Positions 9,882-12,827 of a DNA stretch of 64,000 nucleotides are shown here, in pieces; position 1 is the first letter of the stretch; every line of letters starts with the position of its first letter. A program made the translations under genes and the position numbers. The stretch is from contig NW_019217831.1 of the NCBI RefSeq assembly GCF_002571385.2, positions 876,215 to 940,214 of the forward strand, written 5' to 3'. A model generated the notes under the pieces. That model did not search any database, was not told the DNA's origin, and worked only from the letters and a program-made list of their open reading frames with translations. Source of the DNA: Stylophora pistillata. Its lineage: Eukaryota.

Positions 9882-12827
9882 TTAAATCTCCAAATTGTTA
9901 GCATGAGCCACAGCTATTTCTTTCAGCTCAACTACGTTGCCATCGCCGGTCCTGACAATGCGATGTTCTACAACGTGGTTTTGGGGCAGTGTGACAGGCT
10001 GCTTTGTTCTATGCAAAAAAAACCAAAACAAAACAAGAGAAAACAAAAACAAAAAAGGAAAGAAAAAATAACAACTGAGTAAAGGAAAAAAACCAACCAA
10101 AAACAAACAAATAATAATATTACAAATGATAATAATAATGAAAATGACAATAAAATTAAGACAAATTTAAAAGAAGGGAAACAAATGGCGAAACAAATGC
10201 TACAGAAACAAGAGCACAACAAGCGTATAATCTGCTTTCATTAGCGTTGGGTGTTTTGACTTCACTTCTATAAATTTTGCCATTGATTTCTTCATTATAG
10301 TTCAGCAATTACTTTCATCATTAATGGCTATTACGTACATCACCCTTGGCATTATATATTGCGTGAAGAGAAAGTACGAAAAGGAGGATTTGAGTTCTAC
10401 AGAGGATACGGTTAGCTTTTTGTTCCTTGTTGACTTTACTCATCCGCGAATCCCAAATAAATATTTTAAGAAAAATTAGTGTGTGTCGTCTTCAGCTTCT
10501 TCAATTTTGAAAAAGCAAAAGAGAAGAGGCAAATATTTAAAAGGGCATTTCACAACCATCAAACCTCATCCAGAGACAAAAGTCTTACTTGTAAGTAGTG
10601 TGAAACTGGCATCTGTGGTAACCGCCTCCTTTGAGCAGAAGGAACATAGTCACATCTGGANTTTGTTTCTTTCTTTGCACTGAATTAACCCTCTTCTGCA
10701 CTAAAGTAACTGAAAACTGCATTCATCTTAACCAATCAGAACTGAGAAGTTTTTTCATGTATATTATTAGTTTTAAAACTGAAGAAAGAAACCACTCAGT
10801 CTTTTGTCGAATTCAATTCTCAACTCTTTGCGAGTGTAAGCAGAGAGCCTAACTCTTTTTGGTATTCTTTTTTTATCTCTTCTCTGAGAGTTGCATCATC
10901 GACTTTTTCTTTAGAATTTTGTGAATAACTTTTTTTGAGTTCTTTTTTCAATGAATAATATTGATCAATTTCATTCAATATCGAAGCAGATTCAGCATCT
11001 GATATCGAAGAGTCTTTCAAAGCTTTCGACACGAGTCGGCTGATTGTGCGATGCCTCGCCTCAGCGAGAGAGACAGTTTTTTCATGTTTCTCAGTCTTTT
11101 TGACGAGAGATTTGTTCACGAGAGTCGTCACAGCAGACATGAAGCCAAGTAAACCCGCAATACTCGCCATAGAAAGCAATTACAATACCCACCCCGCTTA
11201 AAGCGCCTGCCAAACCACCTATTAACAGACGTGACTGACGATGTTATGTGGCACACAGATTTTGCTCTCTTGTATTTTTTAGCGACTTCCTGGTGATGAG
11301 AAATCTCATTTTCAATTTCCTTTTGACAATCACAAATCTTTTTCAACCTAAAATCAAGCGGTATGCTTCCTGAATGTGGAAGAGAAGGATAAAGACTTTT
11401 CAGATCAAGTGGTGGAGCAGTTGCATTCGAAGAGCTTGGTAAAATATTTTCGGCAGACATTTCTTTCATAATAATTAAATTATTTCAAACTCAAATCTCA
11501 TTGGCATTCCATTAAAATCAATTATTTTTCCAGTTTCATCAGTCACGAAAAACTTCATTTATGTTATTTCATACCTTGGATTTATTTTTCGCAATGGTTC
11601 AGTTTCACAAAAATATTTCACCCTTTCAAAGGGTTGTCCGACAATGTCGAAACACCCGAGAACTATTGACACGTCTCCATTGAATAGGTTTTCATTCTTA
11701 TCCAAAAGATCAGTTTATAACGTAGTTGTTAAATGATGTTAACCTTTCGACAAAGTTGATTTTTTGCAAACTTCGTTTAATTCCAAGAAGATCAGCCAGA
11801 TCATTATCGAGAAGAATCTTTTTGTTTTGAGGATTATAAATTTCCAAACTTCCCACTGAAGCATTCACGGAACTTGACTCCTTCGTTTTTTAATTTATCT
11901 TCAAGAGCTTCGCTAAGGCTTTTCAGTAATTTCCTTCAGGAATTGTCTTTACGGATGAATTGTCCTGAGCATCAAATACTGAAATTTCTCCAAACCAACT
12001 TAAGTTATGCCATGAGTTGTAAAGAGAACTGCTCAACAATGATCTCTTACGTGAAGTAATTACAGCCTCCCTTCAACGAAACGGGAATCAAGTTATATCG
12101 CTATTGTGAGAGCAATGCAACAATTTCAAGACTACAGTCCTTTTTTGTGATACAACAACATGGAGAGTAAGCGGATATTATGCTAAATAAGCTGTAGATT
12201 CAAAGTAAAATGCAAAACAATCAAGTTTTTGCGTATGGATGTGTACAGTTTTGACTACCTGACAGCACTGTCAAATCAGCGCTTTTTATCCAGCTTTAAA
12301 CTTGATTGAATCGCATTGAATCATTTCCCCAAAAATTCTTCGGAGACCAAAAAAAACCACACTTCGCCTTCCAAAAGCCAGGTTTTCGGTCGATTATTTT
12401 GTTTAGCACAAAGTTAAATAACGGGTTAATTTTGACCCATTTTAAATCCCCNTTGATACATTATCAGGCCCTTCTTTGACGACTGCGATGAAATATTATT
12501 CAACTTTGTCCTTAACAATGAATTTTAATGCATTAAGTAATAGGCTCCTGAATGCATGGTAATAAAATAATTTAAGGTCTGTCTTTTAGGAGCCACTTAC
12601 TCGTTAGGATTTCCGTTTCCATTTCCTTTGATCGTAAAGGGATGTCCATTGACACAGCCAGTCATCTCAAATTTCATCTCCATTTTGTCGGTAATGCCCT
12701 AAATAAGTAAGAAAGCAAAGAATATTATTTTCTACTGAAATTAATAATTCAGCCACCTAATTCGATTTTCCAGCGGATTGCTTGTATTCAGTTCCTACAG
12801 ACTATCTCAAACAGTACGACACACCAT
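9882..12827 (-). CDS. GFP-like fluorescent protein gene, partial (exon 12601-12698 and last exon 9882-10008; probable ATG exon at 12825-12827; middle exons not seen)
   Basis: ag|[32 protein letters not shown](E)|gtaag matches anthozoan FP strands 1-2. ag|[41 protein letters not shown] matches strands 10-11 including the catalytic Glu. Both introns are phase 2 at positions typical of coral FP genes. Confidence 0.85.
10820..11460 (-). pseudogene. Maverick membrane-associated protein (coiled coil - Gly/Ala hydrophobic hairpin - coiled coil), frameshifted
   Basis: MSAEN...ATAPP...LYPSLP...[17 protein letters not shown]...KKYKRA / [16 protein letters not shown] / [10 protein letters not shown]...[13 protein letters not shown]...[13 protein letters not shown]. 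Confidence 0.7.
11475..12045 (-). pseudogene. Maverick minor capsid (penton-like) protein, degraded
   Basis: Manual translation with shifts: [14 protein letters not shown]...KTIPEGNY...LADLLGI...[12 protein letters not shown]...[15 protein letters not shown]...[23 protein letters not shown]. Confidence 0.75.
12322..12450. repeat. ~125-bp direct repeat, copy 2
   Basis: Near-identical to 9038-9167; ends at the single-N join at 12452. Confidence 0.85.

What the first reader, a model, noticed from the sequence alone, without database searches (positions are those of the whole stretch)
9882..12827. Hidden GFP-like gene whose chromophore exons are replaced by a viral segment
The second and last exons of an anthozoan fluorescent protein are intact with canonical splice sites. 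The ~2.6 kb between them contains no recognisable chromophore (XYG) exons and instead holds Maverick capsid and membrane genes. Single-N joins at 10661 and 12452 bracket the viral contig. So either a virus disrupted or sits within a pigment gene (a possible colour-morph allele), or the middle exons are lost in the gaps or the contig is mis-scaffolded.
Basis: partly seen in the sequence, partly recalled or inferred. Interest (0 to 1): 0.7.

Follow-up and report, generated by a model that had tools for sequence, protein, structure and literature searches.

The report
Misassembled coral fluorescent protein gene
A real coral fluorescent-protein gene looks as if a piece of decayed virus DNA replaced its colour-forming middle, but this is most likely an assembly error: the gene likely exists in several near-identical copies, and the viral piece likely belongs just beside the gene, not inside it.

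Summary
The GFP-like exons and the viral piece are real; their arrangement most likely is not. The 1,790-nt insert carries a broken polintovirus penton gene (fold of a sister copy matches mavirus penton, E 3e-7) and a hydrophobic ORF. It continues, in order and orientation, the decayed element lying just 3' of the gene, and its right end matches the transposon arm there at 96% (other copies at most 90%). In four DNA runs the gene's contigs are 4-8 times deeper than the insert's, no listed contig crosses either N, and one shows intron 2 running on normally. None of 13 FP-exon loci checked in this assembly has exons 2-5 free of gaps. Best reading: a collapsed multi-copy gene with a neighbouring contig misplaced in its gap (0.66). 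The left join may be a real deletion junction in one copy (0.25); a true replacement allele is unlikely (0.06). An earlier scan note describes a similar stitched exon elsewhere in this genome.

The parts
13996..14013 (-). Likely FP exon 1 coding part (MSHSKQ), GTAAGT donor, phase 0
   Evidence: same exon upstream of paralogues L042, L043
12601..12698 (-). FP exon 2, canonical splice sites
   Evidence: Pfam GFP 1-26, E 1.2e-10; 78-79 of 98 nt as paralogues
12453..12600 (-). First 148 nt of FP intron 2, cut at the N
   Evidence: aligns to paralogue L041 up to 12454; a contig of run X3 runs on in intron-like sequence
12452..12452 (.). Single-N scaffold join (right)
   Evidence: no bridging contig listed
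12035..12449 (+). Inner part of one arm of a high-copy long-TIR DNA transposon (TTAA-GAG ends, Sola3-like by recall); last 129 nt are 96% identical to 9038-9166
11478..12021 (-). Broken polintovirus penton (minor capsid) gene: first 37 codons absent, split over two frames
   Evidence: tblastn of sister ORF L024, 66%; model of the sister family matches mavirus penton, E 3.3e-7
10856..11469 (-). Broken polintovirus ORF of about 210 aa: coiled coil plus hydrophobic hairpin, split over three frames
   Evidence: no significant fold or Pfam match
10662..10769 (+). Right 108 nt of a very high-copy short repeat (MITE-like); the insert contig starts inside it
   Evidence: 39 of 39 other scored copies 94-97%; contig depth about 40,000-220,000
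10657..10661 (.). Four non-FP bases and the single-N join (left); three of the four match the repeat in register
10589..10656 (-). Surviving 3' 68 nt of FP exon 4 with GT donor
10009..10588 (-). FP intron 4
   Evidence: homologous to paralogue introns
9882..10008 (-). FP exon 5 coding part with stop
   Evidence: Pfam GFP 132-168, E 1.7e-9
9038..9537 (+). Outer part and end of the same transposon arm, 3' of the FP gene
6301..8962 (-). Decayed polintovirus remnant (truncated integrase 7003-6599, broken packaging ATPase 8802-8394); colinear with the insert in sister copies
   Evidence: Pfam Pox_A32 E 8.7e-8, rve E 0.028

Best explanation
This is a real coral GFP-like gene whose middle 0.9 kb is missing from the assembly, most likely because several near-identical copies were collapsed into one, and the viral contig is likely a longer version of the gene's own 3' flank that the scaffolder misplaced into that gap. 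Steps: (1, shown) a decayed polintovirus remnant and a transposon arm lie 3' of the gene; (2, shown) the insert is a further piece of the same element family, colinear with that remnant, and ends in the same local copy of the arm; (3, inferred from contig depth) the unit of remnant, arm and FP gene is multi-copy, and copies or haplotypes differ in how much of the remnant they keep; (4, inferred) contigs broke in exon 4 and intron 2, where copies and paralogues branch, and the short middle piece was dropped; (5, inferred) the copy-specific viral contig, whose true place overlaps the left contig, was put in the nearest gap with one N on each side.
For: Origin of the insert: window 6301-8962 and 10782-12038 are consecutive, same-strand parts of sister copies on C72 and C75, 3,744 and 3,165 nt apart; the insert's last 129 nt match 9038-9166 at 96%, the other 38 scored copies at 87-90%; contigs of X4 and X7 run on past 8962 in polintovirus sequence like those sister copies. 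Both insert ends lie inside high-copy repeats. Depth: median listed FP-unit contig over median insert contig = 3.9, 5.1, 4.8, 8.1 in X1, X3, X4, X7, yet the assembly holds one copy of these introns. One X3 contig continues past 12454 in sequence like paralogue intron 2 that is absent from the assembly. No contig, joint or gap row across either N is listed in 4 DNA runs, and no joint in 4 RNA runs. Same-assembly controls: 0 of 13 loci with FP exons have exons 2-5 with no N-run or missing exon; paralogue L044 shows upstream-N-250 nt-N-exon 4 with no exon 1-3 hit and no match of that piece to the viral insert; L043 repeats exon 5 three times at single Ns; 6 of 10 interpretable single-N joins lack 100-700 nt relative to homologous copies. 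Precedent: missing exons and high coverage at coral FP genes in short-read assemblies (PMC5203795, passages); head-to-tail FP arrays (PMC4949654, passages).
Against: At the left join the FP exon and the repeat share TC and the next three bases match the repeat in register, as a real junction would; by my rough estimate a chance of a few per cent per look. 4 of the 10 interpretable single-N joins hide almost nothing (-17 to +1 nt). Contig tables were cut (1,935 pieces and 86 loose ends not shown), contigs drop rare variants, and the tool warns that depth is no copy number; I measured no single-copy baseline. The continuing intron 2 rests on one contig with 31 loose letters. The missing middle was not recovered from any source. 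The window's intron 4 differs from the type seen in all four runs at several sites, so the left contig may be a minority, decaying copy. L103 lacks exon 2-3 hits with no N, so real FP decay occurs here.
Confidence: 0.66

Rival explanations
1. Left join real, right join false. In a tandem array, a microhomology-mediated deletion fused exon 4 of one copy to the short repeat inside the polintovirus remnant of the next unit; the insert then runs on through the transposon arm into an intact copy that the assembly collapsed. This leaves one truncated 3' FP remnant beside intact copies; the virus replaced nothing.
For: TC microhomology plus three in-register bases at 10655-10659; left contig differs from the type seen in the four runs in intron 4, while exon 2 and its flanks are identical to it; insert is at a fraction of FP depth; geometry fits the unit order.
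Against: No contig with a 1-2 nt gap at 10660-10661 is listed in 4 runs although short gaps elsewhere were (table 4); 2-5 unmatched bases beside an N occur at several other joins; a 111-nt repeat remnant should be spanned by reads and closed (inference); exon 4 beyond 10656 is near-identical among paralogues, a natural break point.
Confidence: 0.25
2. The assembly is literally right: in one allele 0.9 kb with the chromophore exon was replaced by a 1.8-kb templated copy of the flank (template switch or gene conversion), giving a null pigment allele.
For: Both joins are single Ns, as for abutting contigs; insert pieces are identical to the window in three samples; RNA reads of this gene type are almost absent.
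Against: No terminal repeats or target duplication, both ends inside other repeats; right end has two bases that fit neither side; intron 2 continues in X3; FP contigs 4-8 times deeper than the insert; the template form is not the form next door.
Confidence: 0.06

Closest known systems
Incompletely assembled multi-copy FP genes of Acropora digitifera (PMC5203795; passages seen)
   Same: Exons missing from FP genes at unassembled stretches; high read coverage pointing to further copies.
   Different: Here an unrelated neighbouring contig sits in the gap; a pocilloporid coral (nearest FP hits are labelled Stylophora pistillata and Pocillopora damicornis).
amilFP597 tandem arrays of Acropora millepora (PMC4949654; passages seen)
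   Same: Five-exon gene, chromophore triplet in exon 3, multi-copy, copy number tied to colour morphs.
   Different: Tandem order and copy number are only inferred here from contig depth; no link to colour was tested.
Endogenous polintoviruses (Mavericks, Adintoviridae) of stony corals (PMC11131425, PMC8502044; passages seen)
   Same: Integrase, packaging ATPase and penton in conserved order; many copies per genome (13 other matches over more than 700 nt at 78-84%).
   Different: This copy is a broken fragment without polymerase, major capsid gene or termini in the window; it carries insertions of other repeats.
zoanRFP / amFP486-like anthozoan fluorescent proteins (PDB 2fl1, 2a46)
   Same: Best PDB matches of exon 2 and exon 5.
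   Different: Chromophore and colour of this gene cannot be read: exon 3 is not in the assembly.

Membership tests
GFP-like proteins (Pfam PF01353) | Profile match over the curated cut-off | tested here: met
   exon 2 42.1 bits, exon 5 38.4 bits, cut-off 22
GFP-like proteins (Pfam PF01353) | Anthozoan five-exon layout with matching phases | tested here: met
   exons 1, 2, 4 (3' part), 5 in order with GT/AG ends and phases as in paralogues
GFP-like proteins (Pfam PF01353) | X-Y-G chromophore in exon 3 | tested here: inconclusive
   absent from the window and not found as an orphan in the assembly; read contigs suggest the intron runs on
GFP-like proteins (Pfam PF01353) | Full-length spliced mRNA of this gene | tested here: inconclusive
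   4 RNA runs, 2-6% of each read: exon reads nearly all carry paralogue-type letters; 13-37 reads per run at 99% or more
Polintovirus / Maverick | Retroviral-like integrase and packaging ATPase | tested here: met
   3' of the gene, broken: rve E 0.028 (sister copy 2.3e-6), Pox_A32 E 8.7e-8
Polintovirus / Maverick | Minor capsid protein (single jelly roll penton) | tested here: met
   sister ORF model (pLDDT 72) matches mavirus penton E 3.3e-7 and a Sputnik chain E 4e-5; window remnant 66% identical
Polintovirus / Maverick | Major capsid protein and protein-primed PolB in this copy | tested here: not met
   no tblastn hit in the window; sister copy L063 has Capsid_N E 5e-4; the PolB label for the L061 ORFs is recalled from motifs, Pfam gave no polymerase hit
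Fresh viral integration into a gene | Element termini at both junctions, target-site duplication, no host sequence lost | tested here: not met
   insert starts inside a short repeat and ends inside a transposon arm; 914 nt of host gene missing relative to paralogue L041
Fresh viral integration into a gene | Reads or contigs across both junctions | tested here: inconclusive
   none listed in 4 DNA and 4 RNA runs, but tables were cut and contigs drop rare variants
Adintovirus GasderminX membrane-active protein | Similarity to the gasdermin C-terminal domain (PMC8502044) | tested here: inconclusive
   hydrophobic stretch at residues 67-121 of the sister ORF; low-confidence helical model, no Foldseek match at E 0.001 and no gasdermin among rows shown
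Sola3-like DNA transposon (features recalled, not from a call) | Long terminal inverted repeats, GAG termini, TTAA target site | tested here: met
   inverted arms of 450-1170 nt in L049, L052, L054; TTAA beside GAG/CTC at 11 of 12 ends printed
Sola3-like DNA transposon (features recalled, not from a call) | Sola-type transposase in an autonomous partner | not tested
   no search made

The most novel reading that the evidence does not exclude
This fluorescent-protein gene sits in a copy-number-variable tandem array whose repeat unit carries a decayed polintovirus, and recombination through those viral and transposon remnants creates truncated copies (the left join being one), so that old virus DNA drives pigment-gene dosage differences between colonies.
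Probability: 0.1. Interest if true: 0.5.

Novelty: not a real feature. Interest (0 to 1): 0.12.

Why it matters
As it most likely stands, it is a caution: FP genes in this assembly are routinely broken at N joins, so gene counts and loss calls from it are unsafe, and this gene is likely an unannotated multi-copy FP (depth ratio 4-8 between samples and runs). If the left join were real and copy number varied with colour, it would give a testable route from mobile-element remnants to coral pigment dosage; no paper with the phrase 'transposon insertion' was among the 12 listed of 101 in the one search made for this, which is a thin search.

Tried and rejected
Orphan middle exons elsewhere in the assembly: every match to the paralogue's middle belongs to other FP loci or repeats; C2474 is a distant FP, not the missing piece. 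Full-length protein of this gene in databases: not found (2 hits among 8 candidates; 8 hits, best 56% identity). Independent contigs through the gap: two metagenome pattern scans, 0 matches each; records of this genome may be left out there. Exon 2 to exon 5 skipping would be in frame, but no such joint was listed in RNA. ATG at 12827 as exon 1: rejected in favour of 14013-13996. PDB sequence search with the penton alignment: nothing below E 0.1. Gasdermin identity of the second ORF: no support. I first read equal residual depths at 9791 and 10116 as a minority window-type contig and dropped this, since no such contig covers 9975 in X3 or X4. Uncovered insert bins (11593-11778) and small-share runs that I did not lay are not used as evidence. 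The protein atlas gave no result. The Sola3 paper search gave one paper whose text passages do not state the family's ends.

Full report
Observation. The minus strand holds a GFP-like gene. Exon 2 (12698-12601) and exon 5 (10008-9882) pass the Pfam GFP cut-off and match zoanRFP and amFP486 best. Homology to paralogue L041 stops at 12454 and resumes at 10656, next to the two Ns; 914 nt of the paralogue (rest of intron 2, exon 3, intron 3, most of exon 4; this count includes a small repeat insertion in the paralogue) have no counterpart. The nearest FP proteins in the database are labelled Stylophora pistillata and Pocillopora damicornis, so the host is a pocilloporid stony coral.

What the insert is. 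The 1,790 nt between the Ns have three parts. 10662-10769 is the right end of a very high-copy short repeat. 10782-12038 belongs to a family with 13 other matches of more than 700 nt at 78-84% among the 40 candidates scored of 839. Intact ORFs of a sister copy (L024) place two broken genes here: a 221-aa protein whose model matches mavirus penton (E 3.3e-7) and a 210-aa coiled-coil protein with a hydrophobic hairpin and no significant fold match. So 'capsid' is right (minor capsid), 'membrane' is plausible but untested. 12035-12449 is the inner part of one arm of a long-TIR DNA transposon (Sola3-like is my recalled label). There are no viral termini and no target-site duplication.

Where the insert belongs. 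A truncated integrase and a broken packaging ATPase lie at 6301-8962, 3' of the FP gene. In sister copies on C72 and C75 the counterparts of 8962 and 10782 are 3,744 and 3,165 nt apart, same strand and order. The insert's last 129 nt match 9038-9166 at 96%, while the other 38 scored copies reach 87-90%, and the arm continues from 9167 to its end at 9537. The insert is therefore a longer form of the gene's own 3' flank; the left contig carries a form with a larger deletion. Contigs of runs X4 and X7 that continue past 8962 in polintovirus sequence fit such a longer form.

Read evidence. Of 24 runs listed I laid 8. In four contig sets (X1, X7 from two samples of one study; X3, X4 from one sample of another, possibly the source) the virus-to-transposon junction at 12035 is bridged in all four, so the insert is real DNA. 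No contig, gap row or joint across 10661 or 12452 is listed, but 1,935 pieces and 86 loose ends were not shown and contigs drop rare variants. One X3 contig continues before 12454 with 31 letters resembling paralogue intron 2, and this motif is not in the assembly. Taking the contigs listed in table 8 (FP unit: 6, 4, 4, 4 contigs; insert: 2, 3, 3, 2; I left out three transposon-arm contigs and one upstream X7 contig), median depth ratios are 3.9, 5.1, 4.8 and 8.1. A single-copy gene beside a heterozygous insert would give about 2 (inference). The assembly has only one copy of these introns. The tool warns that depth is not copy number and I have no single-copy baseline, so 'multi-copy' is inferred. 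In four RNA runs (2-6% of each read) exon reads almost all carry paralogue-type letters and no joint links the exons of this copy or exon to virus; expression of this gene is not shown.

Controls inside the assembly. Of 15 stretches scanned, 13 hold FP exons; none has exons 2-5 without an N-run or a missing exon. L044 shows upstream DNA, N, 250 nt, N, exon 4; L043 repeats exon 5 three times at single Ns with a 1,716-nt 99% duplicate, and the database model P0001 of that locus skips exons 3-4. L103 lacks exon 2-3 hits without an N, so true decay also occurs. Of 30 distinct single-N joins in held loci, 12 had a homologue on both sides; dropping 2 with kilobase offsets, 6 of 10 lack 100-700 nt and 4 lack about nothing. 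In the window itself 18526-18945 equals 21619-22038, both at single Ns.

Against the simple artefact. The repeat normally reads on to the left of 10662 with five bases that equal window 10655-10659; two are shared with the FP exon and three are not. This is what a microhomology deletion junction between exon 4 of one array unit and the next unit's repeat would look like. Chance is a few per cent per look by my estimate, unmatched bases beside Ns are common, and no contig with the implied small gap is listed. I give this reading 0.25. Under it the right join is still false and intact copies exist.

Comparison. Missing exons and high coverage at multi-copy coral FP genes are described for Acropora digitifera (PMC5203795, passages); tandem five-exon FP arrays with the chromophore in exon 3 for A. 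millepora (PMC4949654, passages); endogenous polintoviruses are widespread in stony corals, with 49 regions reported for S. pistillata (PMC11131425, passages); membrane-active accessory genes are described for adintoviruses (PMC8502044, passages). I read no supplements. The scan's notes hold nothing near this place or on this sequence; one unchecked note reports a probably mis-assembled exon elsewhere in this genome.

Verdict. Ordinary parts in a most likely false order: misplaced contig in a collapsed multi-copy FP gene 0.66, real left junction in one copy 0.25, true replacement allele 0.06. Interest 0.12.

Noticed in passing
L107:2744-4790 (G000:C209): An intronless carbonic anhydrase reading frame ending in six His, then an IRES-like stretch (label recalled), a GC-rich DsRed-type ORF (91% to mCherry plasmids) and a 127-nt piece 100% identical to a plasmid record, joined without N to genomic carbonic anhydrase exons: most likely a laboratory expression construct stitched into the assembly; it is the top Pfam GFP hit of the genome.
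   Followed up: partly
L043:4145-9137 (G000:C1161): FP exon 5 three times, with a 1,716-nt 99% duplicate bounded by single Ns; database model P0001 copies this and lacks exons 3-4.
   Followed up: partly
L044:5577-5827 (G000:C1161): FP paralogue with a 250-nt piece between two single Ns and no exon 1-3 hits: the same pattern as the finding, without the viral piece.
   Followed up: partly
L041:2895-2960 (G000:C746): End of FP exon 3 replaced by a short repeated, tRNA-like piece around a 21-N gap; tRNA likeness judged by eye.
   Followed up: no
window 18526-18945 and 21619-22038: 420-nt exact duplicate, each copy touching a single N.
   Followed up: no
window 1687-3973 and 15965-18284: Direct duplicate (81.5%) of a TPR gene, the first copy with a CHAT domain, flanking the FP locus at a 14.3-kb spacing.
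   Followed up: no
window 23351-23899 (-): Intronless ARPC4 open reading frame covering 166 of 167 profile positions.
   Followed up: no
window 47122-47520 (-): Exon of a Glyco_transf_49 (LARGE-type) glycosyltransferase.
   Followed up: no
window 9882-13300: Depth ratio of FP unit to insert differs between samples (3.9, about 5, 8.1), a hint of copy-number variation of this FP gene, which is nearly silent in the four RNA runs laid.
   Followed up: partly
L061-L062 (G000:C72), L063-L064 (G000:C683): More complete but broken polintovirus copies with integrase, ATPase, penton and capsid-like ORFs; two copies about 9.8 kb apart on C683.
   Followed up: partly
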